Source of the DNA: Burkholderiales bacterium
Lineage (GTDB): Bacteria; Pseudomonadota; Gammaproteobacteria; Burkholderiales; Burkholderiaceae_C
Assembly (NCBI GenBank): GCA_038227445.1
Contig: JBBRPV010000005.1
Span: 584 to 64,583 of the forward strand
Length of the DNA: 64,000 nt
Direction: 5' to 3'
How positions within the stretch are numbered: position 1 is the first letter of the stretch; each line of letters opens with the position of its first letter. Below are positions 21,462 through 42,537 of the stretch, in pieces. The notes under the pieces were generated by a model. That model made no database searches and was not told where the DNA came from. It was given only the letters and a program-made list of their open reading frames with translations. The position numbers and the translations under genes were made by a program.

Positions 21462-22900
21462 TCAAACGACTGGTCGACGTGCTGGTGGCCGGGTTTGGCC
21501 TGCTGCTGCTCGCGCCACTGTTCATGCTGCTGGCCATCTTGATCAAGCTCGATTCGGCCGGGCCAGTGTTCTATCGGCAGGAGCGTGTGGGGCGGCACGG
21601 GCGGCCATTCCGCATCTTCAAGTTCCGCACGATGGCCACGCTGCAGAGTGCCGGCTCGGCGCAGATTACCGTGGCTGGCGACAGCCGCATCACCCGGGTG
21701 GGGCACTGGTTGCGCCGATCCAAGCTCGACGAGCTTGCGCAGTTGCTCGATGTGCTGCGTGGCACGATGAGCCTGGTTGGCCCACGGCCCGAAGTGCCGC
21801 GCTATGTCGAGCATTACCCGCCGCAGTGGCGCGAGAGGCTGCTCAGTGTGCGACCGGGCATCACCGACTTTGCATCGGTACGCTTCCGCGACGAGAGCGA
21901 ATTGCTGGCGCGTGCGGCCGATCCCGAGCGCGAGTACATCGACGTGATCCTGCCGACCAAGCTGCGTTATGCCTTGCGCTACGTTGAACAACCGACGCTC
22001 GTCAACGACTTGCGGGTGCTGGGCCTCACGCTGACAACCGTCTTCATTCCGACCCTGCCCTCACCGAGGAGGTGGCTTCCCATGAACGACAGCAAACTGT
22101 GGATCTGGCTCGACGACTCGATGTCAGCCTTGCGGCCGCGAAACCGCAGCATTGCGATGGCGGTGGACGCGCTCACCGTGCTGGCCTGCTGGCACATCAC
22201 CTACCTGTTTCGCTTGGGCTTCGAGCGCTGGCAGCCGGGTCGCCCTTGGTATGACGACTACGTGTCGTTCGGTGTCGTGCTGACTTACCTGGCGATGCTG
22301 GCGATCACCGGTGTCCCTCGCGGGCTGTGGCGCTTCTTTGGTTTCGACGATTTCAAGCGCATCGCCGCGGCTTGCCTGATCGCCGGCTTGCTGAGCGCGG
22401 TCGCGGTGCTAACGGCACACCTGAGTGGAGTTGCGCGCGCGGTGCTCTTGCTGCACCCACTGTTCTGCGTGCTTGCGTTGAGCTTGCTGCGCATGGCTTA
22501 CCGCATGGTGTGGGAGAACGCGCGCGCACGGGTCAGTGACGATGAAGGCGAGCCGCGTCGCGCCGTGGTGCTGGGGGCTGGAGAGGCGGCGCGGCAGTTG
22601 GTCGGTGCCATTCACCGCCGCGATGGCTGGACCGTGCTGGCGCTGCTGGACGATGACCCCGCCAAGCAAGGGTTGCGACTTGGGGGCGTATCGGTTCAGG
22701 GCGCGCTTGGAGACCTTGTGCTGCCACACATTTTGGCCGGCGCCACCCACGTGATCGTTGCGATGCCCGGCGCAGCGAAAGACGACCGTGACCGCGCGCT
22801 GGCGCTGGCCCGGCACACCGGCCTTCCGGTGATGAACGTGCCGAGCAAGATGGAGTTGCAGAGCGGCGCGGACGCGTCAGGTATGGCGGCTGCGTCGTGA
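21458..22900 (+). CDS. Fusion: WlbG/PglC-type phosphoglycosyltransferase plus the TM and first Rossmann domains of a WbpM/WlbL protein (no catalytic domain)
   Basis: [35 protein letters not shown]; then 4 TM helices and VVLGAGEAA...LLDDDPAK. Confidence 0.85.
22067..22084 (+). promoter_or_regulatory. Internal RBS (AGGAGG) and in-frame ATG at the fusion junction
   Basis: AGGAGG at 22067-22072, 9-nt spacer, ATG at 22082 in frame with 21458. Confidence 0.6.
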
Positions 22901-24857: not shown

Positions 24858-25421
24858 TCAAATGCGGGGAGGATTCTGCATCTCGCCGACGCACAGCCTC
24901 TGGCCGGGTTGAAGCGCCTGGCCAGCGGCCAACTTGGCGCCGGGTTCGAGCACCGAGCCGCCGCCCATGCTGGAGCCCGCTCCCAAGTGCCCGTAGGCTC
25001 CCACGTGGGCATGATGATCGAGCAGCGCACCGGCGTTGACGATGGCGCCCTCGTCGACACGCGCTTCGGTTGCGACCACACTGCCGGCCATGATCGTCAC
25101 GCCCGACCCGATCATCGCGCTCGACGACACGATTGCTCGGGGGTGGACGAGGCTCACGCAGCCGAAGCCGGCCTCGACGGCGCTTTCGCAGGCCCGACGG
25201 CGTGCAACGTTGTCACCGATGGCTGGCACCACGGCATCTGCCATCAGGCGCAGCGAGGCGAGGTCGGCTACGCGGCCGACGACCGGAACGCCACCGACCG
25301 GCGCGAGGTCGGGCCAGCGGTCGTCCACGAATCCCACCAGCGTGTGTTTGCCGTCGACCAACACCAGCTCGGCCACGGCGCGGCCATACCCCCCGGCGCC
25401 GATCACGAGAAGGCGCGCCAC
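24858..25421 (-). CDS. PglD/NeuD-family sugar N/O-acetyltransferase
   Basis: LLVIGAGGYG, AIGDNVARR, LVHPRA, hexapeptide repeats with DHH. Confidence 0.85.
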   Translation of the reverse strand: MARLLVIGAGGYGRAVAELVLVDGKHTLVGFVDDRWPDLAPVGGVPVVGRVADLASLRLMADAVVPAIGDNVARRRACESAVEAGFGCVSLVHPRAIVSSSAMIGSGVTIMAGSVVATEARVDEGAIVNAGALLDHHAHVGAYGHLGAGSSMGGGSVLEPGAKLAAGQALQPGQRLCVGEMQNPPRI

Positions 25422-26684: not shown

Positions 26685-26713
26685 ATTCTAAGGTCGCGGG
26701 TGCGGGCGATAAT
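26685..26713. promoter_or_regulatory. Divergent -10 candidates: TAGAAT (minus, 26685-26690) and GATAAT (plus, 26708-26713)
   Basis: Hexamers in the gap between the divergent wbpL-like and gtrA-like genes. Confidence 0.4.
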
Positions 26714-27149
26714 TCTGCGCTTGAGTCCCAACGCCACTCCTTCCGCCGAGCCTTCAGGTACATCGCAGAGAACGCTCCGGCAACTGCTGCGCTTTGTTCT
26801 GGTGGGCTTGGGACTCAATGCGGTGTTGTACGCCTGTTACCTAGGCCTTGTTGATCGCGGTCTGCTCCCGATGCTTGCGATGACCGCTGTGTACGTGGCC
26901 GGCACCGCGCTGGGCTTCGTGCTGCACCGCTTGTGGTCTTTCGGCAGCCGCGGGGCCGTGCATCGTGAGTGGGGGGCTTATGTCGCCGTCTACGGAGCCG
27001 GTTATGTGTTCAACCTGGCGGCACTCGCCTTCTGCGTCGGCCTTCTCGGCTGGCCACACGCCTGGGTTCAGGGCGTGATGGTGTTCGTGGTGGCCGCTAC
27101 GACCTTTGTTCTCAACAAATTCTGGGTGTTCCGCGCCCCGCGACACTGA
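26700..27149 (+). CDS. GtrA-family small flippase for Und-P-sugar
   Basis: QLLRFVLVG, four TM helices, FVLHRLWSF and FVLNKFWVF repeats; true start may be TTG 26721 or later. Confidence 0.85.
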   Translation: MRAIILRLSPNATPSAEPSGTSQRTLRQLLRFVLVGLGLNAVLYACYLGLVDRGLLPMLAMTAVYVAGTALGFVLHRLWSFGSRGAVHREWGAYVAVYGAGYVFNLAALAFCVGLLGWPHAWVQGVMVFVVAATTFVLNKFWVFRAPRH

Positions 27150-27151
27150 CC

Positions 27152-28306
27152 ATGGCCACCGAGACACGCGTCGACATACCGTTCAACAAGCCGTACATGA
27201 CTGGCCGCGAGCTGAGCTACATCGCTGAGGCGCATTCGGCCGGGCACCTTGCGGGCGACGGTATCTTCTCTCGCCGCTGTGCGGCCTGGCTCGAGCAACG
27301 CACGGGCGCGCACCGGGCGCTGTTAACGCACTCGTGTACTGCCGCGCTGGAGATGGCCGCGATGCTGGCCGACATCGGCCCCGGCGACGAGGTCATCATG
27401 CCTTCGTACACTTTTGTGTCGACCGCTAACGCATTCGTGCTGCGTGGCGGCGTGCCGGTGTTCGTTGATGTGCGGCGCGACACGCTCAACATCGATGAAG
27501 CGCTCGTCGAGGCCGCGATCACGCCGCGCACGCGCGCCATCGTGGTCGTCCACTATGCCGGCGTAGGGTGCGAGATGGACACGATCATGGCGATTGCCGA
27601 GCGCCATGGCCTGCTCGTGATCGAAGACGCGGCGCAAGGCCTGATGTCGCAGTACAAGGGGCGGCTGCTGGGCAGCATTGGCCACCTCGCGGCGCTGTCT
27701 TTCCACGAGACGAAGAACATCATCTCGGGCGAAGGCGGTGCGCTGCTCGTGAACGATGCGCGCTTCACCGACCGCGCGGAGGTGCTCCGCGAGAAAGGCA
27801 CGAACCGGAGCCGTTTCTTCCGTGGCCAGGTCGACAAATACACCTGGACTGACATTGGCTCCTCTTTCCTGCCGGGCGAGATTGTGGCCGCCTTCCTGTG
27901 GGCGCAGATGGAAGAAGCGCAGGCCATCACTGACCGGCGGCTGGCACTCTGGGCGCGATACCACGAGGCGCTCAAGCCGCTTGAGCGCGCTGGGCTCGCT
28001 GTGCGGCCAAGCCTTCCGGCCACCTGCCTGTTCAACGCACACATGTATTACCTGCTGCTGCCCGGGCTCGCCGAGCGCACCGACTTCATTGCGCGGCTGC
28101 GTGCGGTGGGCATCTACTGCGTCTTCCATTACGTGCCCTTGCACAGTTCTCCGGCAGGCCTTCGGTTCGGGCGTGCGCACGGTGCGCTCGGCGTGACCGA
28201 CGAGGCCGGGGATCGCCTCGTGCGGTTGCCGATGTGGGTCGGGCTGGAGACGCACCAAACGCGGGTCATCGACTCGGTCGTGCGCATAGCCAGCGGTCCG
28301 GCCTGA
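27152..28306 (+). CDS. wecE: dTDP-4-amino-4,6-dideoxygalactose transaminase, WecE/RffA family
   Basis: IPFNKP, LTHSCTAALEMAA, SFHETKNIISGEGGAL, REKGTNRSRFFRGQVDKYTW. Confidence 0.9.
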   Translation: MATETRVDIPFNKPYMTGRELSYIAEAHSAGHLAGDGIFSRRCAAWLEQRTGAHRALLTHSCTAALEMAAMLADIGPGDEVIMPSYTFVSTANAFVLRGGVPVFVDVRRDTLNIDEALVEAAITPRTRAIVVVHYAGVGCEMDTIMAIAERHGLLVIEDAAQGLMSQYKGRLLGSIGHLAALSFHETKNIISGEGGALLVNDARFTDRAEVLREKGTNRSRFFRGQVDKYTWTDIGSSFLPGEIVAAFLWAQMEEAQAITDRRLALWARYHEALKPLERAGLAVRPSLPATCLFNAHMYYLLLPGLAERTDFIARLRAVGIYCVFHYVPLHSSPAGLRFGRAHGALGVTDEAGDRLVRLPMWVGLETHQTRVIDSVVRIASGPA

Positions 28307-30063
28307 TGCGGCGCTCGTTGGTTGGCGCTCCGGCGCTGGCGTTGCTGGGTGCTCAGATCGGCCTGTTCGTCTGGATGGCCGGGCATGGGCTCGACTTCAC
28401 CGACGAGTCGTACTACCTGCTGAACTACCAGCACTGGCGCACGCTCACGGCCACGTCCACCTTCTTCGGTGCTTACTTTGAGTGGCCGTTTCGCGCCTTG
28501 GGCGGCGACGTTGGCGCAATGCGGATTTTTGGCCTGGTGCTGCTTGTCGCTGCCGGTGGGTTTTTCACCTGGCGGGTATTCGTGTTCAGGCGCGACGCCG
28601 CCGAGCCGGTGCCTTGGAGGTATGTCATTGCGGGCATGGCAGGGTCGCTCTACTACTACAGCTTTGTCACGACGCTGCGGGCTCCTTCGTACAACCTGCT
28701 TGTGCTGTTTTGCATCCTCGTCGCGACTGGCCTTCTTTTGGTGCTGACGGAAGGCCGCAGCTCACGCGAGCGCCTGCTGTGGGTCTCGTTCGGGTACGGC
28801 TTGCTCGTCGGTGCATGCGCGCTCACCAAGGCGACCAGCGCATTGGCCATGGTCGTCTGTCATCTTGTTTTTCTGTTGACCTTCGGGCCGGTGAAGCGTG
28901 TTCCTGAGTGGGTGGCCGTCGCCGCCGCCGGAGTCGCTGCCAACCTGCTCGCATTGCATCTGGCCCAGCCACGTTGGTTCGATGTATTGCGCGAAGGCGT
29001 GTTACTCACCACCACCCTTGATGCGCGCTACACGACGATCCCGTTCGGCGCCCTCTGGGACGCCGTGCTGCGTGGTGCGACCCGCTTGTTGCCGGCGTTG
29101 GCCATCGGTGCATTGGCATTCGTGATCGTGGTGCGGCGCTGTGGGCGGCCGCACCGTTGGGTCATGTCACTCCTGGTTGTGCTGCTTGTCGGCGGCATTT
29201 TTTGGACGATTCAGGTTCAGGGTTATGGCAAGTCCTGGTGGGCTCTGATCGCATTTGGCACGGCCTTGCTGTGGATGGCCGAGAGGCTGTGCCGCGAAAC
29301 GCCCGTGCCGCGCTGGTGCGACGTGCGTGGGGTGGCCGCGCTGACGGTGTTGCTGTTCATGATGCCAATCTGCTATTCGATCGGCACCAACGGTTCGTTG
29401 CCGGCGCACACCCAGATGGCGGCCGTTTTCGCGATCGTCGCGATGATGTTGCCCCTGCGTCGCCTGCACGCGCTCGGCCTGCTTCACGAGCGCGCCTTGT
29501 CGGTCGCACTGGCGCTGATGTGCGTGCCTATGCTCGTATCTCAATGGCGCTCGCTCGGCGACCCCGCCTTTGCCTATCGGTTGCGCAATGGTCTGATGGA
29601 CCAGCAACAGCCCCTTGCTCTCGGTTCAAACGGGCGTGTGCTGAAGATCGACGCGATCACCCGCGAAGGCGTGGTCAAACTCACGCAGAGCCTGGTTGAT
29701 GCGGGTTACCGAACCGGCGAGCCGATCATCGACGCAACCGGCGATGGCCCCGGCCTGGTCTACGCACTCGGCGGGCGCCCGCTCGGCGTGGCGTGGATGA
29801 TCGCTGGCTACCCTGGCAGCGAGCGAGTTGCGGCGCGCGTACTCGATACATTGCCGCCTGCCGAACTGCGACGTGCGTGGGTGCTGACAGCCGAAGACAA
29901 TCCGCGGGCCTTGCGCGGCTTTCCGGAATTACTGATCCAGCGTACCGGCGGGCGCGGGCACGAGCTTGTCGGGAAGGTCAATATCGTTCCCCAGTACCGC
30001 TGGGACGGGCTGCCCGCCTTGCCGGTTTCCGTGTCGCTGTGGAGGCCGTGTGTGCCGGGCTAG
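28306..30063 (+). CDS. Polytopic membrane protein, probable GT-C glycosyltransferase with a C-terminal periplasmic domain
   Basis: DFTDESYY acidic motif after TM1, many TM helices, soluble C-terminal domain; ATG overlaps the wecE stop. Confidence 0.6.
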   Translation: MRRSLVGAPALALLGAQIGLFVWMAGHGLDFTDESYYLLNYQHWRTLTATSTFFGAYFEWPFRALGGDVGAMRIFGLVLLVAAGGFFTWRVFVFRRDAAEPVPWRYVIAGMAGSLYYYSFVTTLRAPSYNLLVLFCILVATGLLLVLTEGRSSRERLLWVSFGYGLLVGACALTKATSALAMVVCHLVFLLTFGPVKRVPEWVAVAAAGVAANLLALHLAQPRWFDVLREGVLLTTTLDARYTTIPFGALWDAVLRGATRLLPALAIGALAFVIVVRRCGRPHRWVMSLLVVLLVGGIFWTIQVQGYGKSWWALIAFGTALLWMAERLCRETPVPRWCDVRGVAALTVLLFMMPICYSIGTNGSLPAHTQMAAVFAIVAMMLPLRRLHALGLLHERALSVALALMCVPMLVSQWRSLGDPAFAYRLRNGLMDQQQPLALGSNGRVLKIDAITREGVVKLTQSLVDAGYRTGEPIIDATGDGPGLVYALGGRPLGVAWMIAGYPGSERVAARVLDTLPPAELRRAWVLTAEDNPRALRGFPELLIQRTGGRGHELVGKVNIVPQYRWDGLPALPVSVSLWRPCVPG

Positions 30064-30102
30064 CACCTCGCAGAGCGGGCGAAGAAACAGCAGGGATCCG
30101 GG

Positions 30103-30828
30103 TCAGCCCATCAGGCCGACGCGAACCTCGTCTCGCCAGCCCCAGATGTACCGCGGTGCCTCGGGGCCCACGTTGAACAACAAGTCGAGAATCGACACGG
30201 CGGGGTCGAAGGGCGGAAATCGCTGCGGGTGGTCGGGGTAGCCGGCGTAGTTTTTCCATCGCAGTTCGACGCTTCGTTCTCCGAAACGCTCAGGCACGAT
30301 GTAGTCCTTGGCCGCCGGCCCTGACAGGTAGCTTGTGGCGCCGGTCTGGCCCACGAGATCGAGCAGACGGTCCAGCTTCTGGCCGCCGGCGCGGTAGTCG
30401 CGCGAATCAGCGAACTCGGTCGTGATGCCCAGGAACTCGCGCGAGACATGGCGGATCAGCGACTGGTTCAATGCCGAGAGCTTGTGCCACTCCGTGCCGA
30501 GGTACACGTGCTCGAAGTACGCGCGGTAGCGCTCGAAGTGCTCGCACTTGCCATAGTTCATCAGCAGCGTACGCCAGTGCCGGGCTTGCCATGCGTGGTC
30601 ACGCAGCTCAACGTCGCAGATCAGCCGGTCGGTCTGTGCCCCGGCCGGGATCGAAAGCCACTGCGTGCCCTGCGCCGTTTTGATGCGGTTGCGATTGCGC
30701 CAGTCGTTTTTGGTGAACTGCGAATCGTCATAAAAGACGAACAGATCGACGTCGTGAATGACATCGAAGTATCCCCGCCACGGAATGTAGTTCGACTGCA
30801 GGACCGCAACGCTGCGTGAGGGCTTCAT
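30103..30828 (-). CDS. WbqC-family protein (proposed glycine transferase)
   Basis: LQSNYIPWRGYF, YDDSQFTKNDWRNRNRIKT, YLSGPAAKDY, SILDLLFN. Confidence 0.88.
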   Translation of the reverse strand: MKPSRSVAVLQSNYIPWRGYFDVIHDVDLFVFYDDSQFTKNDWRNRNRIKTAQGTQWLSIPAGAQTDRLICDVELRDHAWQARHWRTLLMNYGKCEHFERYRAYFEHVYLGTEWHKLSALNQSLIRHVSREFLGITTEFADSRDYRAGGQKLDRLLDLVGQTGATSYLSGPAAKDYIVPERFGERSVELRWKNYAGYPDHPQRFPPFDPAVSILDLLFNVGPEAPRYIWGWRDEVRVGLMG

Positions 30829-30832
30829 GCCT

Positions 30833-31810
30833 TCATCGGTGGATGTCGCGAATGATGTATGTGGGCCGGTTCTGGACCTGGTTGAAGACCTTTCCCAGGT
30901 AGATGCCGACGAGGCCGAGCCCAGTGGTGAGAATGCCCAGCGTCATCGCCATCATCGCCATCATCGACGTGAAGCCGAGCAGGGAATCGTCGAAGAGCAA
31001 CTTGCGCGCGATCAGGTAGCCGGCGTAGCCGAAGCTGGTGAAGGTGATGAGCACTCCACTGTTGAACAGCCACACCAGCGGCTTCGACGAAAACGAACTG
31101 ACCGCGTTCACCATCAGTTGCACCCGTCGCATCAGCGTGTACGTGCTCTCGCCTTCACGCTGCTGCTTGCCGACCGACATGCCCACCTGGCTGAAGCCGG
31201 CCCAGCTCATCATGCCGCCCATGAAGAGGTTGTAGTCACCCATGCTCAGAAGCGCGTCAACAAAGCGCCGCGTCATCACGCGTTCGGTAACCAGGTTCTC
31301 GGGAACCCGGGTGTCGCTCATGTGGTTGAACCCTTTCCAGAACAGGCGGCCGCTGAATCGTTCGAACCAATGGCCCTTGCGTGCCTCCTGGTAGCCAAAG
31401 ACCACGTCGGCGCCGCTCTGTCGCAGCTTGGGCAGGAAGGCCGCCAGCACGGCTGGGCGAACTTCCAGGTCGCAGTCGATAAGAAACACCAGATCACCCC
31501 GCGACTCGCGCAGCCCGGCCTGAATGGCCTGGTGATGCCCGAAGTTGCGCGAAAGATCGATCACCACGAGCTCTGGAATGTCGCTGCGGCGGGCAAGCAC
31601 ATAGGCCAGCGAGTCGTCGGGCGAGCCGTCGTTGACGAGGACGATCTCGTAGCGCTCGCAGCCGGTCGACGCGAGGATCTGCACACACTCTGCGAGAAAG
31701 GTCTCGAGAAAGCGTCGGGATCGATACATCGTGGACACGATGCTGACCTCAGGGAGATCGGTGCTCGTCGATGCGGTTCTGTGCGGCATGATGTTGACTG
31801 TGGCGTTCAT
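30833..31810 (-). CDS. GT2 polyprenyl-phosphate glycosyltransferase, GtrB/ArnC-like
   Basis: VLVNDGSPD, LSRNFGHH, IDCDLE, two C-terminal TM helices, GIYLGKVF..QNRP. Confidence 0.88.
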   Translation of the reverse strand: MNATVNIMPHRTASTSTDLPEVSIVSTMYRSRRFLETFLAECVQILASTGCERYEIVLVNDGSPDDSLAYVLARRSDIPELVVIDLSRNFGHHQAIQAGLRESRGDLVFLIDCDLEVRPAVLAAFLPKLRQSGADVVFGYQEARKGHWFERFSGRLFWKGFNHMSDTRVPENLVTERVMTRRFVDALLSMGDYNLFMGGMMSWAGFSQVGMSVGKQQREGESTYTLMRRVQLMVNAVSSFSSKPLVWLFNSGVLITFTSFGYAGYLIARKLLFDDSLLGFTSMMAMMAMTLGILTTGLGLVGIYLGKVFNQVQNRPTYIIRDIHR

Positions 31811-31845
31811 CTGTCCCCTCGGTCGACGACCTTCGGTGCTCTTGG

Positions 31846-32523
31846 TTATTTCAGGAACGCCCAACCTACCTCCTGCGCCAGCGACGGATGCACGAACGCG
31901 GCAGGACTGAAATAGACCGTCCGCCCGGCCAGCACGGTCGACTCGCATGCCTGCGCGCGCCATGCCGAAAAGTCTGGCGCATAGGATGCGACGGCGTTCA
32001 GCAAGCCCACGCAGCCACAACGAAAGAGCAGTTCCATCAGGGACTCTAGTTCCGGAACCGAAGGCGTTGCAGTGAGAGCCTGAATGATCGGGCGGCCGGT
32101 GTCGAGCTGCTCGTCGACGTGGTGAACCGTTATTCCTACGAACTTCGCCCCATAGTCGAGCGCCCTTCGGACAGGCTTATCGCCGATCGCTCCGGCAAAT
32201 GCCGGCAGCATCGAGTAGTGAAGGTTGACGAGCTTGCCTCTAAAGGCAGCGACCAGTTCGGGAGCCAGGATCCTGTGGACCGTGGTCACGATGACGTCGG
32301 GGCTGATCGCCTGCAACCTCCTCGTCACGGCTGGCTGAGCCGGCGCGGAAAAATCCATCACTTCGGCAGGGAGGCCTCTGGCTCGGGCGAAGGTGTTCGC
32401 CCCGCATTCGCGATCAGAAAGCACTGCGCATATCTGCGCGCTGTTGCACCAGCCCAGTCGGATAGCCCTGTCGATGAATCTGAGGTTGCCACCGTTTCCG
32501 GAACACAGGAATGCGATTCTCAC
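31846..32523 (-). CDS. PurN-like N10-formyl-THF-dependent formyltransferase (probable sugar N-formyltransferase)
   Basis: AFLCSGNGGNL, VNLHYSMLPAF, GITVHHVDEQLDTGRPI; GTG start with AGGAG RBS. Confidence 0.8.
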   Translation of the reverse strand: MRIAFLCSGNGGNLRFIDRAIRLGWCNSAQICAVLSDRECGANTFARARGLPAEVMDFSAPAQPAVTRRLQAISPDVIVTTVHRILAPELVAAFRGKLVNLHYSMLPAFAGAIGDKPVRRALDYGAKFVGITVHHVDEQLDTGRPIIQALTATPSVPELESLMELLFRCGCVGLLNAVASYAPDFSAWRAQACESTVLAGRTVYFSPAAFVHPSLAQEVGWAFLK

Positions 32524-33859: not shown

Positions 33860-34993
33860 CTACAAACTTTTGCGCCAAACCACGCGGTTCACGTAGTCGG
33901 TGTAGCTGTGCAAAATGCGCAGCACCTTGGCCGAGACGTTGGACATGCTGTAGTCGGCCACCAGCCGCAGGTCGCGCTGCGCCCCGCGCGCCTGGGTTTC
34001 GAGGATCGCAAGCGCCTGGCGCACGCGCACCGTCTCGAGGCCGACCATCATCACCGCTGCTTCTTCCATGCCTTCGGGCCGCTCGTGCGCCTCGCGCAGA
34101 TTGAGCGCCGGAAAGTTAAGGATCGACGACTCTTCGTTGATCGTGCCGCTGTCGGAGAGCACGGCGCGTGCGTTCATCTGCAGCTTCACATAGTCGAGAA
34201 ACCCAAGCGGCTTGAGCAGCCGCACATTGGCGTGAAAGCTCACGCCCATCGCGTCGATGCGCTTCTGAGTGCGCGGGTGGGTCGAGACGATCAGCGGCAG
34301 GGCGCGCTCTTCGGCCACCGCGTTGAGCACCTCGACCAGCTTCGCGAAGGTCTGCGGTGCGTCGATGTTCTCTTCGCGGTGCGCGCTGACCACGAAGTAC
34401 TGTTGTGGCGTCAGGCCCAAACGCGCGAGAACGTCGGAAGCCTCGATCTTCGGCCGGTAGTAAGCCAAGACCTCGAACATCGGGCTGCCGGTCTTGATGA
34501 CGAGGTCGGGCGGCAGGCCCTCGCGCAGCAGATATTCGCGGGCGATGTCGCTGTAGGTGAGGTTCACGTCGGCAGTGTGGTCGACGATGCGGCGGTTGGT
34601 TTCTTCGGGTACGCGCAGGTCGAAGCAGCGGTTGCCGGCTTCCATGTGGAAGATCGGGATCTTGCGACGCTTCGCCGGAATCACCGCGAGACAGCTGTTG
34701 GTGTCGCCGAGCACCAACATGGCGTCGGGCTGCTCGGTGGCGAGCACACGATCAATCGCAATGATGATGTTGCCGATCGTCTCGGCTGCGTTGCCACCGG
34801 CGCTGCCCAGGAAGTGCGCCGGCTTGGCGACCCCCAGGTCGTCAAAGAAGACCTGATTGAGTTCGTAGTCGTAGTTTTGCCCGGTGTGCACGAGCACGTG
34901 CTCACAGTGCTCGTCGAGCTGCGCCATCACGCGCGACAGGCGGATGATCTCTGGCCGTGTGCCGACGACCGTCAGGACCTTTAGCTTCTTCAT
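33860..34993 (-). CDS. fnlC: UDP-2-acetamido-2,6-dideoxy-L-talose 2-epimerase, FnlC/WbjD/Cap5G
   Basis: [36 protein letters not shown]. Confidence 0.9.
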
Positions 34994-35023
34994 GTGTGAA
35001 ATCTCGTGGCGGCGCTTCTGTGT

Positions 35024-36169
35024 TCAGCAACTGCGTGCGGACAGCGGCCGGGGCGCGGGAATACCTACGTCAAGCACGACCTTGAGAAGATTCTCGTTGT
35101 ACCTCGCGGTGGTGTACTGACGCAGCGCCGTTAGATGGTTGTGCTGAGCCATAGGCGCGAGTCTCTCGGGCGCGCTAACGATTGTGTTCAGGGCAGCCTG
35201 AAGCGAAGCCACCGAGCGCTTCTCCACGGCCATGCCGTTGACTCCGTCGGCGAATGTGTCGAAGATTCCACTGTGGTCGGTGGTGATGACGGCGCAGCCG
35301 GCGGCGTAGGCCTCAAGGATGCTGATGGGCTGGCCTTCGTAGGGGTAGTAGGTGGGCAGGCAGAACACGTGGGCTGCGGCGAACAAAGCGCACTTTTGCT
35401 CGCCGTGTACGGTTCCGTGGTACCGCAGCTGGGCATGTGACGCTATCTCGGCGAGGAAATCCTGCTTCGCCTGCTCGGACTTGAACCCGCCGGCGAAGTC
35501 GATGCGCAGCGACTCGCGCACCGCGGGCTCGAGTGCCACGAAGGCCCGCAGCAATTCGAGGTGGCCCTTGCCCGGCAAGAGGTTGCTCAGGAACAGCAGG
35601 CGCAATGGGCGCACCTGCGAGAACTTCGCTTTGATTGATTCGCGACTCGCGAACAGCTCGTTTTGCGCAAAGTTCGGAACAACGTGGATTCGCTCGGCCG
35701 GTGCGGCTCCGGCGAACACGTCGCGATGGCGCTCACCCAATACGACGACTGCGCCCAGGCGACGCAAAAACACGGCGTTTAACCGGCGCAGCCAACCCCA
35801 GCGCCCGCGCATCAATTCGCGCATGCCCGCACCGCCGTGCAGGTGCACGACCATCTTGCGTAGGCGCGCGAAGCACACTGCGTAGATCAACAGGTCCTTG
35901 GCGTTTCCGGCCAGCGATTCGGAGATCGTAAAGTAGATGACGTCGGCTGAGCTTTGGAGCGCACGCACCTGACGGATGATCTGGAGCACCTCTCGAATGC
36001 GCGAAGCCGAATCCACACCTTGCTTGAAACTCGCCTTGCTCAGGTTGACCACCTGAACATCGCAGTGCAATTGAAGCTCCTCCAGGAAGACCTGGCAAGC
36101 AAGCGACTGTCCAGTGACAGGGTCGGGTAGCGGCCCGATGAAGAGTGCCTTTGTGCGCGGCAGCGTCAT
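35024..36169 (-). CDS. GT4 glycosyltransferase
   Basis: FLSNL..KG, YEGQPISILEAYAAG (EX7E). Confidence 0.88.
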   Translation of the reverse strand: MTLPRTKALFIGPLPDPVTGQSLACQVFLEELQLHCDVQVVNLSKASFKQGVDSASRIREVLQIIRQVRALQSSADVIYFTISESLAGNAKDLLIYAVCFARLRKMVVHLHGGAGMRELMRGRWGWLRRLNAVFLRRLGAVVVLGERHRDVFAGAAPAERIHVVPNFAQNELFASRESIKAKFSQVRPLRLLFLSNLLPGKGHLELLRAFVALEPAVRESLRIDFAGGFKSEQAKQDFLAEIASHAQLRYHGTVHGEQKCALFAAAHVFCLPTYYPYEGQPISILEAYAAGCAVITTDHSGIFDTFADGVNGMAVEKRSVASLQAALNTIVSAPERLAPMAQHNHLTALRQYTTARYNENLLKVVLDVGIPAPRPLSARSC

Positions 36170-37278
36170 GGGCGCAACTTCATCGCCACGGTGTCGGGCC
36201 GCTCGCGGTCGAACACTTCGTTGGCCCAGAGCATGACGATCACCTCGTCGTCACCGATGTTGGTGATGTCGTGTGTCCAGCCCGGCACTGTCTCGACTAT
36301 GCGCGCTTCGCCGCCGCGCGTGACGATCTCGTGGATCTGCCCAGTTTCGATGTGACGGAACCCGAACTGTGCCGTGCCCTTGATGACGAGGAACTTCTCG
36401 GTCTTGCTGTGATGGTAGTGCCCGCCGCGGGTGATGCCCGGGTGCGCAGTGAAGTACGAGAACTGGCCGCAGTCGGGCGTTTTGAGCATCTCAACGAATA
36501 CACCGCGCGGGTCGCCGTGGCAGGGCACCTCATACGCAAACGATTCGGGGGGCAGGAAGCTGACGTAGGTGGCGTAAAGCGCCCGCACGAGGCCCGTGCC
36601 GACGCGTGGTGTGGTCAGCGTGCCGCGGCTGGCGGCGAAGCCGCGCAGTGTCTCGGCCAATTCGCCGACCGTCGTGGAATGAACCGGCCCGGCCGCCACG
36701 AATCCGCCAGCAGAAGGCGGCGCCGCGAGAAGGGCGGTGAAGGCAGCAACCACGTCGTCGACGTAGATCAGACGCAAACTTGCCGTCGGATCATTGACCG
36801 TGATCGGCAGGCCGCGTGCGATGTGATGGCAGAACGTGGCGACGGCCGAGTTGTAGTTCGGCTTTGACCATTTGCCGAACACATTTGTGAGGCGCATCAG
36901 ATGCACCGGCACGCCAAAGCTGCGGCCATGTTGAAGCAATGCTTCTTCCGCTGCGCGCTTGCTGCGGCCGTAGGGGTTGTCGATCTCGGCCTGGATCGAA
37001 GAGGCAAACACGATCGGCGCGCGGCAGCCCGAGGTGGCGAGCACCTCGCACAACGCTTCGGTGAAGCCGACATTTCCGGTTTCGAACTCGGTCGGGTCTT
37101 TCGGCCGGTTGATTCCGGCAAGGTGAAACACCATGTCGGCGCCTTGCAGGGCTTCCTGAAGTTGAACAGCGGAACTCTTGCGCGTCACGCTGACCACGTC
37201 GGTGTGGCCGAGTTCGTGCAGCCGGACGCGCAGATTGCTGCCGAGGAAGCCATCGGCCCCGGTGATGACGATGCGCAT
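36166..37278 (-). CDS. fnlB: FnlB/WbjC/Cap5F reductase with C-terminal cupin domain
   Basis: ITGADGFLG, HLAGINRP, NVFGKWSKPNYNS, HPGITRGGHYHH. Confidence 0.92.
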   Translation of the reverse strand: MRIVITGADGFLGSNLRVRLHELGHTDVVSVTRKSSAVQLQEALQGADMVFHLAGINRPKDPTEFETGNVGFTEALCEVLATSGCRAPIVFASSIQAEIDNPYGRSKRAAEEALLQHGRSFGVPVHLMRLTNVFGKWSKPNYNSAVATFCHHIARGLPITVNDPTASLRLIYVDDVVAAFTALLAAPPSAGGFVAAGPVHSTTVGELAETLRGFAASRGTLTTPRVGTGLVRALYATYVSFLPPESFAYEVPCHGDPRGVFVEMLKTPDCGQFSYFTAHPGITRGGHYHHSKTEKFLVIKGTAQFGFRHIETGQIHEIVTRGGEARIVETVPGWTHDITNIGDDEVIVMLWANEVFDRERPDTVAMKLRP

Positions 37279-37283
37279 GCGGC

Positions 37284-38318
37284 TCAGTCCTCCGCCATGG
37301 CGGCTTCGCCGCGGGCGATGCGTTTCATGAAGTCGAGCGTCAGAAGGAGTTGCTTCATGCCTTCGACATCGAGCCGGTTTGTATTGTGCGAGTTGTAGTC
37401 CTCGCCATGGGTGATGCGCTGTTCTCCCTGTTCGATGAACTTGGCGTAGTTGAGGTCACGGCCATCGGGCGGTACTCGGAAGTAGTCGCCGAGGTCCTCG
37501 GCACAGGCGCGTTCCTCGCGGCTGAGCAGGGCCTCATAGAGCTTTTCGCCGTGACGGGTGCCAATCTCGCGCACCTCGTGGCTTGGTCGACGCAACAGCT
37601 CAAGCAGCGCGCGCGTCAGCACCTCCACGGTGGCGGCCGGCGCCTTCTGGACGAAGATGTCGCCGTTTCCGCCGTGGCGGAAGGCGTATGTGACCAACTC
37701 GACCGCGTCATCGAGCGTCATCATGAATCGCGTCATCGCTGGGTCTGTGACGGTGATCGGTTTCCCGGCGAGGATCTGCTCGACGAAGAGCGGGATCACC
37801 GAACCGCGCGAGGCCATGACGTTGCCGTAGCGGGTGCCGCAGATGACGGTCGCAGTGTTTTCGAGGTTTCGCGAGGCGGCCACCATCACCTTCTCCATCA
37901 TCGCCTTGGAGATACCCATCGCGTTGATCGGGTAGACCGCCTTGTCGGTGCTCAGGCACACAACTCGCTGGACGCGCGCGGCAATCGCAGCCTCGAGCAC
38001 GTTTTCGGTCCCCAGCACGTTCGTGCGCACCGCCTCCATCGGATGGAACTCGCACGAGGGCACCTGTTTTAGGGCTGCAGCGTGAAAGCAGAAGTCCACC
38101 CCCCGCATCACTCCGGCCACTGCGCGCTCGTCGCGGACATCGCCCAGGTAGAACTTCAGCTTCCCGCTGCTATAGCGCTTGCGCATGTCGTCCTGTTTCT
38201 TCTCGTCGCGACTAAAGATGCGGATCTCTCGCAAATCGGACGACAGGAAACGGCGCAGGACGGCGTTTCCGAACGAGCCCGTTCCACCAGTAATTAACAG
38301 CGTTCTATCTTTGAACAT
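37284..38318 (-). CDS. fnlA: FnlA/WbjB/Cap5E UDP-GlcNAc 4,6-dehydratase/5-epimerase
   Basis: LITGGTGSFG, SRDEKKQDDMR, HAAALKQVPSCEF, TRYGNVMASRGS. Confidence 0.93.
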   Translation of the reverse strand: MFKDRTLLITGGTGSFGNAVLRRFLSSDLREIRIFSRDEKKQDDMRKRYSSGKLKFYLGDVRDERAVAGVMRGVDFCFHAAALKQVPSCEFHPMEAVRTNVLGTENVLEAAIAARVQRVVCLSTDKAVYPINAMGISKAMMEKVMVAASRNLENTATVICGTRYGNVMASRGSVIPLFVEQILAGKPITVTDPAMTRFMMTLDDAVELVTYAFRHGGNGDIFVQKAPAATVEVLTRALLELLRRPSHEVREIGTRHGEKLYEALLSREERACAEDLGDYFRVPPDGRDLNYAKFIEQGEQRITHGEDYNSHNTNRLDVEGMKQLLLTLDFMKRIARGEAAMAED

Positions 38319-38376
38319 GGTTTTCTTGGATCGGGAGAGATGACGGTAGTCGTTGTTCGTGGAGGCGCGTGAGCCC

Positions 38377-39105
38377 TCACGCAATCGATGCAGGGCGCGC
38401 CAGCGCGCCGCAGTGATAGCAAAAGAAGCGCGAAGCCAGAATCGGGTTCATGCGCAGCATGGCCCGGCGTAGCAGCATTCGCGTGCGCCCCTTCAGGTTC
38501 GACGTGTTGAATCGGTGCACGTCCAGCGAATGATCGAAGAGCTGCAGATCCATCACGTCGAGTCCCGAAGTCTGCAAGAGCACCAAAAAGTGCTCTGGAC
38601 TGTAGGCGTTGATGTGGCCGGTGTTGAGCGCCGCCTGAAGCACGGCCCTCGGGATCCGAACACGTTGCTCGCAAGGCACCTCGATGTAGATCAGTTTTCC
38701 CGCCACTCGTGCGAGCTCGGCGATGAAGCCGCGCGGATTGGGAACATGCTCGACCACATGACTGGCCACGACCAGATCGAAGCTGCGGTCGGCAAACGGA
38801 AGCGTGATGCCGTCGTAGGCGCGCAAATCCAGACCCTTCGCGCCAGGATCGACATGCGCGGTCGGATCGGCAAGATCCACCCCGACATGGCGGGTGCCGA
38901 TCTTGCGCCGCGCAACCTCCGCCAGAACCGAACCAGTACCGCAGCCGACTTCGAGAACCGAGCCCACTGGCCTGCCCGCGAGCAGGCGTTCGAGGTTGGT
39001 CGTCTTGTCGATTGCGCCCAGGCGCCGCCACTCGAGCTCGGAGGGGCTGTATGTTCCTTCGTAGTGGCGGTTGAGCGCCTGGGTTTCGTATGGCCTAACT
39101 AGCAT
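38377..39105 (-). CDS. Class I SAM-dependent methyltransferase
   Basis: VLEVGCGTG, FDLVVASHVVEHV. Confidence 0.85.
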   Translation of the reverse strand: MLVRPYETQALNRHYEGTYSPSELEWRRLGAIDKTTNLERLLAGRPVGSVLEVGCGTGSVLAEVARRKIGTRHVGVDLADPTAHVDPGAKGLDLRAYDGITLPFADRSFDLVVASHVVEHVPNPRGFIAELARVAGKLIYIEVPCEQRVRIPRAVLQAALNTGHINAYSPEHFLVLLQTSGLDVMDLQLFDHSLDVHRFNTSNLKGRTRMLLRRAMLRMNPILASRFFCYHCGALARPASIA

Positions 39106-39192
39106 GTTGGTCTTTCGTTGACGGAAGCGTCGCGCGGCGCTGTCCGCTTCGCTCGCGGAGACACGAGTTAATTGGCGAAACGGCCGTCGGGT

Positions 39193-39906
39193 TCAATGAC
39201 GGCGTACGAAGAGGAATTCCTCGTTGCTGACGGGCGAGCGCCAGGCACAACGGAATCCAAGATCGTTGAGTGTCTTCACGGCATCGGCGGTCGAGCGTCG
39301 ACCGAAGACTTCCCATCGATGGTGAAATTCTATGCAGATGGTCTCGATATTCGGCGCCAATCGCCTGAAGTCGTCGCTGGCAAGAAGTGCGTACTCGGCG
39401 CCTTCGATGTCAAGCTTCAGCAGATCGATTCGCTCACAGCCCACGCGTTCGAAGACGTCTCCCAGGCTGATCAACTGGACCTGGATCTTTTTCGAGCCGA
39501 CGTGTCCTGCCTTTGTCAGGGAGCCGCTCACATGCGCCTCTTCGTTCGGCAAGTAGAACTCGGCAGGACCGCGCTGCGCCGCCACGCCGACTTCGTGCAA
39601 CACAAAACCCGGTGGCGCCGACTCTCGAACGAACCTGATGGCCCTCGGTGTCGGATCGAATCCGTGCGCCACGCATCCGTACTTCGCCATCAGCGAGGTC
39701 GTGAACGAGATGTCCTCGCCGAGACCGACATCGACCACGACTGATGCGCGACGCAGCGAATCGCGCGGGATGTTCCACCCGCAATAGTCGTTGCCGTGGA
39801 ACTCGAGTTTCGTCGAGGTTTGTAGCGGTACATAGGGCTCGATGCGCAGTGCTTGCTTGGACAGCACGCGAAGCCGCCGGTAGGTTTTCAGCAGGGTCGC
39901 TTGCAT
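39193..39906 (-). CDS. FkbM-family methyltransferase
   Basis: VVDVGLGEDISF, GFDPTP, IDLLKLDIEGAEY, ICIEFH. Confidence 0.85.
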   Translation of the reverse strand: MQATLLKTYRRLRVLSKQALRIEPYVPLQTSTKLEFHGNDYCGWNIPRDSLRRASVVVDVGLGEDISFTTSLMAKYGCVAHGFDPTPRAIRFVRESAPPGFVLHEVGVAAQRGPAEFYLPNEEAHVSGSLTKAGHVGSKKIQVQLISLGDVFERVGCERIDLLKLDIEGAEYALLASDDFRRLAPNIETICIEFHHRWEVFGRRSTADAVKTLNDLGFRCAWRSPVSNEEFLFVRRH

Positions 39907-39950
39907 TGTCGATTCTTGGCGTTCGTCATGGAGGTGCGATAAAAGTCGCA

Positions 39951-40733
39951 TCAGCCAGATCTTCGAATAGACCCAAAGAGCGCCTGTTTGGCGATCGGGT
40001 CCGGGTAGCTGATGAGAACGGCTCGATAGGAGCCCTTGAAGACAAATAGGCTTCCCGCTGCAGCGCCGACGATACCGCAGGCCTCGACCAGCGTGCTCAG
40101 GTCGGCCAGCGAACCCGCGCCGCCGAGGACTGTCATCGGGATGCGAACCGTCTCGCGCACGCGCTTGGCCAGACCAAGGTCGTAGCCCTTCATCTGGCCA
40201 TCGTTCTCGATCGAGTTGATGACGATCTCGCCGGCGCCGCGAGTCTGCGCGTCGAGCGCCACGTCGAGCACCGCCTTCTTGGTGTTCTTGCGGCCGTTGT
40301 GCGTCCACACGTCGTATTCTTTGCCGAGCAGACGCTTCTTCACATCGAGCACGACCACGACGCTCTGGCTGCCGATCTCTTCGGCAATGCGCGTGATCAG
40401 CGTCGGGTCGTCGAGCGCGGCCGCGCTGAGCGCGACCTTTTCCACGCCAAGGCCGATGATCTTCTTGGCCTGTTGCACCGTGCGCACGCCGCCGCCGTAA
40501 CAGAGCGGCATGCGGCATTCAGCGGCGAGCCGGGCGATCAGTTTGAAGTCGGGCTCGGCGTTGTTGACGGTGGCGTCGATGTCGAGCACGATCAGTTCGT
40601 CGGCTTCTTTTTCATTGAAGATCTTGACCGCGTTGATCGGGTCGCCCACGTACTTCGGATCCTTGAAGCCGACGGTCTTCACGAGGCCGCCTTCGTGCAC
40701 GAGCAGGCAAGGGGTGATTCTGGGCCTCAGCAT
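39951..40733 (-). CDS. HisF2/WbuZ-like cyclase subunit (glycan-associated)
   Basis: LVKTVGF..YVGDPINAVKIFNEKEADEL, YGGG, GYDL, AAAGSLFVF. Confidence 0.9.
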   Translation of the reverse strand: MLRPRITPCLLVHEGGLVKTVGFKDPKYVGDPINAVKIFNEKEADELIVLDIDATVNNAEPDFKLIARLAAECRMPLCYGGGVRTVQQAKKIIGLGVEKVALSAAALDDPTLITRIAEEIGSQSVVVVLDVKKRLLGKEYDVWTHNGRKNTKKAVLDVALDAQTRGAGEIVINSIENDGQMKGYDLGLAKRVRETVRIPMTVLGGAGSLADLSTLVEACGIVGAAAGSLFVFKGSYRAVLISYPDPIAKQALFGSIRRSG

Positions 40734-40734
40734 G

Positions 40735-42485: not shown

Positions 42486-42537
42486 GGCGGCGGGAGCAGG
42501 TCGGCGAAATAAGAGTGTCGATGCGGAACAGCGTGCG

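What the first reader, a model, noticed from the sequence alone, without database searches (positions are those of the whole stretch)
30103..32523. Formyltransferase plus WbqC could make an N-formyl-glycyl substituent
Established: WbqC-family genes occur in loci making Qui4N(GlyAc) and are proposed glycine transferases; sugar N-formyltransferases use the HxSLLP motif. Seen: both flank the GT2, with no acetyltransferase in the cassette, and this formyltransferase keeps a PurN-like SGNGGN start. PurN formylates the glycyl amine of GAR. Inference: product may be Fuc4N(Gly-formyl), using PurN-like chemistry on a glycylated sugar.
Basis: inference. Interest (0 to 1): 0.6.

Follow-up and report, generated by a model that had tools for sequence, protein, structure and literature searches.

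The report
Amino-sugar side-branch cassette with PurN-like formyltransferase
Three tightly packed genes, plus three facing them, form a cassette that most likely builds a 4-amino sugar, attaches an amino acid to its amine, caps that with a formyl group and hands it on a lipid carrier to a periplasmic transferase. This gives a testable job to the widespread orphan protein family WbqC.

Summary
WbqC (30103-30828), a GT2 (30833-31810) and a PurN-like formyltransferase (31846-32523) lie head to tail on the minus strand, and the cassette has no acetyltransferase.

What the tools add:
- **GT2.** It is an ArnC/GtrB-type polyprenyl-phosphate sugar synthase.
- **Facing operon.** It encodes a GtrA-like flippase, a WecE-type dTDP-4-amino-4,6-dideoxyhexose aminotransferase and a GT-C transferase whose best fold match is ArnT. 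The whole is an Arn/Gtr-like side-branch module at the end of a Wzx/Wzy polysaccharide locus.
- **Formyltransferase.** It belongs to a distinct ~225-aa sister clade of PurN. It keeps the Asn-His-Asp triad and PurN's SGxGxN loop. In 49 of 53 metagenomic loci it sits beside WbqC, and the other 4 are cut at a contig end. WbqC more often pairs with acetyltransferases.
- **WbqC.** Its model (pLDDT 97) is closest to BshC (Z 13.8) and to class I tRNA-synthetase cores. This suggests an ATP-dependent amino acid:amino-sugar ligase.
- **purN.** A true purN lies elsewhere in the genome.

The amino acid (glycine?) and the order of steps are inferred, not shown.

The scan has noted WbqC with BshC and WbqC with formyltransferases before, on other DNA. 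No paper found assigns WbqC a function.

The parts
26700..27149 (+). GtrA-like small membrane protein, candidate flippase for the lipid-linked sugar
   Evidence: PF04138 GtrA_DPMS_TM, 62 bits. A homologue is present in 16 of 53 formyltransferase loci, and an SMR-like small membrane protein (weak Pfam hits, below cut-off) in another 18.
27152..28306 (+). WecE-type dTDP-4-amino-4,6-dideoxyhexose aminotransferase (probably makes dTDP-Fuc4N)
   Evidence: TIGR02379 at 608 bits and NF008687 at 602 bits, both over cut-off. The listed ORF starts at 26969, but the family match begins near the Met at 27152. A homologue lies next to WbqC in 17 of 26 loci and next to the formyltransferase in 42 of 53.
28306..30063 (+). 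585-aa GT-C fold membrane glycosyltransferase with a C-terminal periplasmic domain
   Evidence: No Pfam or NCBIfam hit. AF2 model pLDDT 91.9. Top Foldseek hits are ArnT 5f15 (probability 1.00), AftD, PglB/STT3/AglB, ALG12 and PMT. Asp-Glu of DFTDESYY in the first loop is invariant in 44 homologues. Its ATG overlaps the WecE stop as TGATG.
30103..30828 (-). WbqC family protein, candidate ATP-dependent amino acid:amino-sugar ligase
   Evidence: PF08889 at 241 bits. AF2 pLDDT 97.2. BshC 4wbd at Z 13.8 over 223 residues, class I LysRS at Z 11.6, GluRS at Z 8-9, MshC at Z 7.4. Natural fusions to GNAT acetyltransferases and to a methyltransferase exist.
30833..31810 (-). ArnC/GtrB/PgfS-type GT2: polyprenyl-phosphate sugar synthase with C-terminal membrane helices
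   Evidence: PF00535. Full-length matches to NF047588 PgfS (158 bits) and NF007986 ArnC (128 bits), both below the equivalog cut-offs. Start ATG at 31810 behind GAGGGG. A homologue is present in 47 of 53 formyltransferase loci.
31846..32523 (-). PurN-like N-formyltransferase of a distinct ~225-aa subfamily
   Evidence: PF00551. TIGR00639 PurN at 89.7 bits, below the 150.1 cut-off. Closest solved structures are PurNs at E about 1e-16. Invariant across the subfamily: CSGxGGNL, Asn100, His102, Asp141. Separated from PurN/PurU by a branch with support 96/87.

Best explanation
The six genes at 26700-32523 form one Arn/Gtr-like module that adds a decorated amino-sugar side branch to a surface polysaccharide.

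Proposed steps (only the gene assignments and fold matches are shown by tools; the steps themselves are inferred):
1. dTDP-4-keto-6-deoxyglucose, made by rmlA/rmlB elsewhere in the genome, is aminated by the WecE-type enzyme to dTDP-4-amino-4,6-dideoxyhexose, probably Fuc4N.
2. WbqC, a minimal class I synthetase/BshC-like enzyme, activates a small amino acid with ATP and joins it by an amide bond to the sugar's 4-amino group. Glycine is the leading guess.
3. The PurN-like formyltransferase transfers formyl from N10-formyl-tetrahydrofolate to the new alpha-amine. This mirrors PurN acting on the glycinamide amine of GAR.
4. The ArnC/GtrB-like GT2 moves the finished sugar to undecaprenyl phosphate.
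5. The GtrA-like protein flips it across the membrane.
6. The GT-C enzyme transfers it in the periplasm onto the polysaccharide made by the adjoining Wzx/Wzy locus.
For: **Gene identities and fold matches:**

**Genomic linkage**
- The formyltransferase subfamily is tied to WbqC. Of 53 metagenomic loci of at least 6 kb, 49 have WbqC, 47 the GT2 and 42 the WecE-type gene. The 4 without WbqC are cut at a contig end.
- The linkage survives changes of gene order and identity down to about 33%.
- The reverse does not hold. Among 25 WbqC loci from genomes, only 3 have this formyltransferase. In 19 of the 25, a hexapeptide acetyltransferase gene lies within 7 kb of WbqC, directly adjacent in seven of them.
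- Natural GNAT-WbqC and WbqC-methyltransferase fusions exist.
- This asymmetry fits cap enzymes (acetyl, formyl, methyl) acting on what WbqC makes.

**One-amine argument.** The WecE product has a single amine. A BshC-like amide ligase and an N-acyltransferase can both be used only if they act in sequence (inference).

**Formyltransferase features**
- It keeps the SGxGxN loop, which PurU and Fmt lack. From my memory of the E. coli PurN structures, this loop binds the GAR phosphate.
- It lacks the conserved PurN Glu-His pair further on. From the same memory, that pair contacts the GAR ribose.
- This fits a phosphate-bearing glycinamide-like acceptor on a different sugar.

**Housekeeping and precursor genes**
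- A housekeeping purN, purU and fmt exist elsewhere in the genome.
- rmlA and rmlB are present on contig C25.

**Chemical precedent.** Amide-linked N-acetylglycine and other amino acids are known in E. coli O antigens (PMC7685785).
Against: - No biochemistry exists for WbqC or for this formyltransferase subfamily.
- The BshC reaction itself has never been reconstituted in vitro (PMC5790435), so the analogy rests on genetics and fold.
- WbqC shows no sequence-level link to BshC, and a shared fold does not prove a shared function.
- Nothing in the sequence names the amino acid.
- The cassette matches the Arn pathway slot for slot except ArnD. That also fits direct formylation of the sugar amine, as ArnA does.
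- The 80 formyltransferase loci may descend from one ancestral module, so their co-occurrence counts are not independent.
- No report of an N-formylglycyl sugar was found.
Confidence: 0.5

Rival explanations
1. Arn-like direct formylation. The formyltransferase formylates the 4-amino group of dTDP-Fuc4N itself, as ArnA does with UDP-Ara4N. The GT2 takes the N-formyl sugar to undecaprenyl phosphate. WbqC does something else, for example esterifying an amino acid to a sugar hydroxyl or adding another acyl group.
For: - Five of the six Arn functions have counterparts: aminotransferase, formyltransferase, ArnC-like GT2, small-membrane flippase and an ArnT-like GT-C.
- Every sugar formyltransferase among the solved structures that matched this protein (ArnA, WbkC, PseJ) is, from my knowledge, one that acts directly on a sugar amine.
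- Class I synthetases, WbqC's other fold relatives, make esters to hydroxyl groups (for the fold; the chemistry is general knowledge).
Against: - This reading gives no reason why the formyltransferase subfamily is never seen without WbqC.
- The enzyme is nearer to PurN than to ArnA, WbkC or PseJ. The E-values are 1e-16 against 1e-5 or worse.
- It keeps the PurN-specific SGxGxN loop.
- WbqC's closest fold match is BshC, which is needed for an amide to a sugar amine (PMC5790435).
Confidence: 0.25
2. Transient acylation with WbqC as the deacylase. Formylation drives the amination and marks the sugar for the GT2. WbqC then fills the ArnD/NaxD slot and strips the formyl group from the lipid-linked sugar, so a cationic free amino sugar reaches the surface.
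For: - WbqC is the only cassette member without an Arn counterpart, and ArnD is the only Arn function without a cassette counterpart.
- Elsewhere WbqC co-occurs with either acetyl- or formyltransferases plus an ArnC-like GT2.
Against: - WbqC has a nucleotide-binding class I synthetase/BshC fold. ArnD belongs to the polysaccharide deacetylase family PF01522 (my recollection); no such family was hit by any cassette gene, though no family is excluded by its absence from a fold list.
- GNAT-WbqC fusions would make and undo the same bond in one protein.
- Earlier scan notes, not tested here, report WbqC beside separate PIG-L deacetylases, which would be redundant.
Confidence: 0.07
3. Same ligase-then-cap logic, but the residue WbqC adds is not glycine. 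It could be alanine, serine or another small acid, giving for example an N-formyl-alanyl sugar.
For: - E. coli O antigens carry amide-linked alanine, N-acetylserine and allo-threonine as well as glycine (PMC7685785).
- An N-formyl-L-alanyl group is mentioned in a paper on Vibrio anguillarum O-antigen gene clusters (PMC10059132, listed; not read).
- Nothing tested here fixes the amino acid.
Against: - The PurN kinship of the formyltransferase points to a glycinamide-like acceptor.
- The WbqC namesake comes from a cluster for an N-acetylglycyl sugar. This rests on my memory, and one search supports only the sugar structure.
Confidence: 0.15

Closest known systems
Arn pathway for L-Ara4N on lipid A (ArnB, ArnA, ArnC, ArnD, ArnE/F, ArnT)
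   Same: Both have an aminotransferase, a folate-type formyltransferase, a GT2 that loads undecaprenyl phosphate, a small-membrane flippase and a GT-C transferase. ArnT is the top fold match of the GT-C protein.
   Different: - The sugar is a dTDP-4-amino-4,6-dideoxyhexose, not UDP-Ara4N.
- No UDP-GlcA decarboxylase and no ArnD-type deformylase were found among the cassette genes.
- The formyltransferase is PurN-like, not ArnA/Fmt-like.
- A BshC-like WbqC is added.
- The cassette sits at the end of a Wzx/Wzy polysaccharide locus.
GtrA/GtrB/GtrC-type three-component periplasmic glycosylation of O antigens
   Same: A GtrA-family protein, a GtrB/ArnC-like GT2 and a multi-pass GT-C enzyme lie beside a polysaccharide locus.
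   Different: Gtr systems transfer plain glucose. This cassette carries its own pathway for a decorated amino sugar.
BshB/BshC of bacillithiol synthesis (and MshB/MshC of mycothiol)
   Same: WbqC's best fold match is BshC (Z 13.8, 223 residues), and MshC also matches (Z 7.4). BshC is required to add cysteine to the amine of GlcN-malate (PMC5790435).
   Different: - WbqC is 241 aa against 540 aa for the BshC chain.
- No sequence similarity is detectable.
- The acceptor would be a nucleotide- or lipid-linked sugar.
- The BshC reaction itself has not been reconstituted.
PurN, glycinamide ribonucleotide transformylase
   Same: The N-terminal SGxGxN loop, the Asn-His-Asp triad and the H-x-S-(L/M)-L-P motif are shared, and PurNs are the best sequence matches.
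   Different: - The score is below the PurN cut-off (89.7 against 150.1 bits).
- It forms a separate clade.
- It has a 3-residue insertion after the catalytic motif.
- The PurN Glu-His pair is replaced by Gly-Cys.
- The C-terminal ~75 aa are its own.
- A true purN exists elsewhere in the genome.
E. coli O121 / Shigella dysenteriae type 7 Qui4N(N-acetylglycyl) O antigen
   Same: It is a 4-amino-4,6-dideoxyhexose with an amide-linked, N-capped glycine (structure: PMC7685785). That the WbqC family is named after a gene of that cluster is my recollection and was not checked here.
   Different: - The cap there is acetyl, not formyl.
- The sugar there is built into the main chain by a Wzx/Wzy pathway (my recollection), not delivered through undecaprenyl phosphate and a GT-C enzyme.
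- No enzyme has been assigned to the glycine step in any paper I could find.

Membership tests
PurN (TIGR00639, GAR transformylase) | Score over the curated equivalog cut-off (150.1 bits) | tested here: not met
   89.7 bits. The genome's true PurN scores 233.6.
PurN (TIGR00639, GAR transformylase) | Catalytic Asn-His-Asp triad and N-terminal SGxGxN loop | tested here: met
   Asn100, His102, Asp141 and CSGxGGNL are invariant in 28 subfamily members and align with PurN.
PurN (TIGR00639, GAR transformylase) | Conserved Glu-His in the C-terminal helix (ribose contact of GAR, from my memory of the E. coli structure) | tested here: not met
   PurN rows have EREH, EAEY or EQEH. The subfamily has an invariant Gly and a mostly conserved Cys at the aligned place.
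Known sugar N-formyltransferases (ArnA, WbkC, PseJ, VioF type) | Closest relatives are Fmt/ArnA-like sugar enzymes | tested here: not met
   PurN structures match at E about 1e-16. WbkC, PseJ and ArnA match at 4e-6 to 5e-5. The VioF-type model NF005755 does not appear among the hits.
WbqC (PF08889) | Full-length match over the gathering score | tested here: met
   241.3 bits against a cut-off of 21.3, profile positions 1-217 of 218.
BshC family | Shared core fold | tested here: met
   4wbd at Z 13.8, rmsd 3.3, 223 residues aligned. It is also the top Foldseek hit, probability 0.99.
BshC family | Detectable sequence homology and full BshC length with its dimerising coiled coil | tested here: not met
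   Neither the single sequence nor a 76-sequence profile finds BshC among PDB chains. WbqC is 241 aa against a 540-aa chain. The coiled coil of BshC is described in PMC5790435.
Class I aminoacyl-tRNA synthetase-type ligase | ATP-dependent amino acid activation | not testable with these tools
   Only the fold is shown. The canonical HIGH and KMSKS motifs were not seen in the sequence by eye.
Arn-like pathway | Aminotransferase, formyltransferase, ArnC-like GT2, flippase and GT-C transferase together | tested here: met
Arn-like pathway | ArnD-type deformylase and UDP-GlcA dehydrogenase/decarboxylase domain | tested here: not met
   No such family was hit among the genes of 26700-32523. The formyltransferase is a stand-alone 225-aa protein.
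GtrABC-type three-component glycosylation | GtrA-family protein, GtrB-like GT2 and a GT-C enzyme in one locus | tested here: met
   PF04138. GT2 with full-length ArnC/PgfS matches. GT-C fold.

The most novel reading that the evidence does not exclude
A descendant or sister of GAR transformylase has been recruited to sugar chemistry because a 4-(glycylamino)-4,6-dideoxyhexose 1-phosphate resembles GAR. In both, a glycinamide sits four bonds across a sugar ring from a phosphate ester. Its obligate partner WbqC would be a minimal class I synthetase-like glycine:amino-sugar ligase. Together they would define a widespread, undescribed route to N-formylglycyl sugars delivered through undecaprenyl phosphate. 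They would also give the first assayable model for the unsolved BshC-type reaction.
Probability: 0.3. Interest if true: 0.75.

Novelty: new variant of a known kind. Interest (0 to 1): 0.6.

Why it matters
- **An orphan family gets a test.** WbqC (PF08889) is large, with over 10,000 clusters at 50% identity at E up to 0.001, and none of the held papers that mention WbqC assigns it a function. The fold and the gene linkage give a concrete test: ATP, an amino acid and a dTDP-4-amino sugar.
- **A missing enzyme.** A positive result would name the enzyme for amide-linked amino acids in O antigens such as E. coli O121. It would also offer a small, soluble model for BshC, whose reaction is still not reconstituted.
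- **A second origin.** The PurN-like subfamily would be a second evolutionary origin of glycan N-formyltransferases.
- **Practical use.** Capped aminoacyl sugars change surface charge and antigenicity, which matters for serotyping and for phage or immune recognition.

Tried and rejected
- Contexts came from the search for related loci plus my own ORF clustering instead.
- **Papers not held.** PMC2168959 (the dTDP-Qui4N pathway in S. dysenteriae 7) and PMC4303302 (the BshC structure) could not be read.
- **Literature on WbqC.** A full-text search gave 15 papers. The one I read calls it uncharacterised, and the other titles are unrelated or genome surveys. I could not confirm that it is a 'proposed glycine transferase'.
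- **N-formylglycyl sugars.** No paper on such a sugar was found.
- **WbqC against solved structures by sequence.** Neither the single sequence nor a profile gave a significant hit. Only fold comparison links it to BshC.
- **E. coli O121 cluster.** I did not check that it holds a WbqC gene. The E. coli collection takes DNA queries only, and I had no accession.
- **Acetyltransferase at 24858-25421 as the hidden cap: set aside.** It overlaps the WbpM-like dehydratase gene, it belongs with a PglF/E/D-like set, and it is 26% identical to a WbqC-adjacent acetyltransferase. It is not excluded.
- **WbqC as an ArnD-like deformylase: judged unlikely** on fold and on the GNAT fusions.
- **The formyltransferase as the housekeeping PurN: rejected**.
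- **Orthologues in relatives.** None was found in 200 genomes of the same family, one per genus; the only hits there look like the housekeeping PurN (40-47% identity over residues 2-158). The cassette is therefore patchy in those searched.
Full report

Yes. On the minus strand lie three genes:
- WbqC at 30103-30828 (PF08889, 241 bits).
- A GT2 whose ORF reaches 32020. Its likely start is the ATG at 31810, behind GAGGGG.
- A formyltransferase at 31846-32523 (PF00551, 92.9 bits).

The gaps are 35 nt and 4 nt, so the three probably share a transcript with the glycosyltransferase genes upstream. The formyltransferase begins VRIAFLCSGNGGNL. Its motif reads NLHYSMLP, and an Asp sits in HHVDEQLDTG. 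The 'HxSLLP' motif is HYSMLP here and HYSLLP in most relatives. No acetyltransferase gene lies in 26700-32523.

**2. What surrounds it**

The GT2 matches ArnC (NF007986, 128 bits) and PgfS (NF047588, 158 bits) over its full length, and it has hydrophobic C-terminal helices. It is therefore a polyprenyl-phosphate sugar synthase, not a chain-building transferase.

A second operon converges on the trio from the plus strand:
- A GtrA-family protein at 26700-27149.
- A WecE-type aminotransferase at 27152-28306, over the cut-offs of TIGR02379 and NF008687.
- A 585-aa multi-pass protein at 28306-30063, whose ATG overlaps the WecE stop.

The 585-aa protein has no Pfam hit. Its AF2 model (pLDDT 91.9) matches ArnT best, then AftD, PglB/STT3/AglB, ALG12 and PMT. 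All of these are GT-C enzymes. An Asp-Glu pair in its first loop is invariant in 44 homologues.

Upstream on the minus strand are FnlA/B/C, WbuX/Y/Z-like genes, methyltransferases, several GT4 genes, a Wzx, a probable Wzy, a Wzz-like gene and a Wza-like gene. The cassette therefore sits at the end of a Wzx/Wzy surface-polysaccharide locus. It looks like an Arn/Gtr-type side-branch module. The genome has rmlB and rmlA on another contig, so the dTDP-4-keto-6-deoxyglucose precursor is available.

**3. The formyltransferase**

- It scores 89.7 bits on the PurN model, below the 150.1 cut-off.
- Its best solved relatives are PurNs at E about 1e-16. WbkC, PseJ and ArnA come at 4e-6 to 5e-5.
- A database search shows about ninety clusters of full-length relatives of 220-240 aa. 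There is then a sharp drop to true PurNs at E about 1e-17 with partial coverage.
- In a tree, the subfamily is separated from PurN plus PurU by a branch with support 96/87.
- CSGxGGNL, Asn100, His102 and Asp141 are invariant.
- Against the genome's own PurN, PurU and Fmt, only PurN shares the SGxGxN loop.
- The subfamily has a three-residue insertion after the catalytic motif. It replaces the PurN Glu-His pair with Gly-Cys, and it has its own C-terminal ~75 residues.
- From my memory of the E. coli PurN structures, the loop binds the GAR phosphate and the Glu contacts the ribose. This would fit a phosphate-bearing acceptor on a different sugar, but it is inference.
- The genome has a true PurN (233 bits, next to trpS rather than purM), a PurU and an Fmt.

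**4. Linkage**

A metagenome scan with the subfamily alignment returned 80 loci. Among the 53 loci of at least 6 kb:

| Neighbour of the formyltransferase | Loci (of 53) |
|---|---|
| WbqC | 49 |
| ArnC-like GT2 | 47 |
| WecE-type aminotransferase | 42 |
| RmlA | 19 |
| GtrA-like or SMR-like small membrane protein | 34 |

- Methyltransferases are frequent, and no acetyltransferase is among the conserved neighbours.
- The four loci without a full WbqC are cut at a contig end, and two of them show a partial WbqC by tblastn.
- Gene order varies: WbqC-GT2-FT, GT2-FT-WbqC-WecE, FT-WbqC-WecE, and divergent pairs. Identity falls to about 33%.
- The reverse does not hold. Of 25 WbqC loci from species genomes, only three carry this formyltransferase (L005, a Rhizobacter MAG with the same cassette; L024; L027).
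- Sixteen of the 25 have a WecE-type gene, and 19 have a hexapeptide acetyltransferase gene within 7 kb, directly adjacent to WbqC in seven.
- Natural fusions join WbqC to GNAT acetyltransferases and to a methyltransferase.
- The formyltransferase therefore occupies the place that an acetyltransferase holds in other WbqC modules.

**5. WbqC**

- The family is large: 10,671 clusters at 50% identity at E up to 0.001.
- The AF2 model is confident (pLDDT 97.2).
- Foldseek's top hit is BshC 4wbd, probability 0.99.
- The Foldseek-independent search gives BshC at Z 13.8 (rmsd 3.3, 223 of 241 residues). Next come class I LysRS at Z 11.6, GluRS at Z 8-9, and TyrRS, CysRS and MshC at Z 7-8.
- BshC is needed to add cysteine to the amine of GlcN-malate, though its reaction has never been reconstituted (PMC5790435).
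- No sequence-level link to BshC was detectable.
- The one held paper I read that mentions WbqC calls it uncharacterised.

**6. Reading**

The WecE product has one amine. By analogy a BshC-like ligase needs an amine, and an N-formyl- or N-acetyltransferase also needs one. Both can be used only in sequence: the ligase first, giving a new alpha-amine, then the cap.

Three further points agree with this:
- The linkage is one-way. The formyltransferase is always with WbqC, but WbqC is often without it.
- Acetyl-, formyl- and methyl-transferases are interchangeable partners of WbqC.
- The formyltransferase is akin to PurN.

Together these make the N-formyl-aminoacyl reading the best supported, at about 0.5. 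Glycine is the leading but unproven candidate.

The main rival, at about 0.25, is ArnA-like direct formylation of the sugar amine, with WbqC doing something else. The cassette's slot-for-slot likeness to Arn keeps this alive. WbqC as an ArnD-like deformylase is unlikely on fold and on the GNAT fusions.

**7. Novelty**

- The parts are of known kinds. Arn/Gtr-type delivery is known, and so are capped aminoacyl amino sugars such as the N-acetylglycine of E. coli O121 (PMC7685785).
- I found no paper that describes the PurN-like formyltransferase subfamily or its fixed pairing with WbqC, and none that assigns WbqC a function.
- No orthologue of the formyltransferase was found in 200 genomes of the same family, as expected for a variable surface-glycan cassette.
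- Earlier notes of this scan report WbqC with BshC 42 times and WbqC with formyltransferases 79 times on other DNA. I reached the BshC match independently before reading them.

Noticed in passing
21458-22900 (+): A Bac_transf phosphoglycosyltransferase domain continues in frame into a CoA_binding_3 region like the N-terminal part of WbpM.
   Followed up: no
33860-42824 (-): FnlA/B/C-like genes plus WbuX (303 bits, over cut-off), a HisH-like amidotransferase and a HisF-like gene (39951-40886) suggest an L-FucNAc/L-FucNAm-type acetamidino sugar. Two methyltransferase genes lie among them.
   Followed up: partly
43782-45122 (-): A 446-aa ORF with no Pfam hit lies between a GT4 gene and the Wzx gene. 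By position it is a candidate Wzy polymerase.
   Followed up: no
L001 (own genome, contig C38): The housekeeping purN lies directly downstream of trpS (706 bits), not next to purM.
   Followed up: partly
L030-L109: In formyltransferase modules the small membrane protein is either GtrA-like (16 loci) or SMR-like (18 loci; weak Pfam hits below cut-off). One to three methyltransferase genes are common there but absent from this window's cassette.
   Followed up: partly
P0251, P0292, P0330, P0338, P0372: WbqC occurs as a tandem double domain (494 aa). It is also fused to a methyltransferase, to GNAT acetyltransferases, and in one case to a Glyco_tran_28_C domain plus a GNAT.
   Followed up: partly
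L008, L011, L012, L013, L019: In five WbqC loci a radical SAM/SPASM protein of about 317 aa lies within about 1.7 kb of WbqC (Pfam checked for the L012 member only). In four others a GH130-like protein does, with a weak Pfam hit.
   Followed up: no
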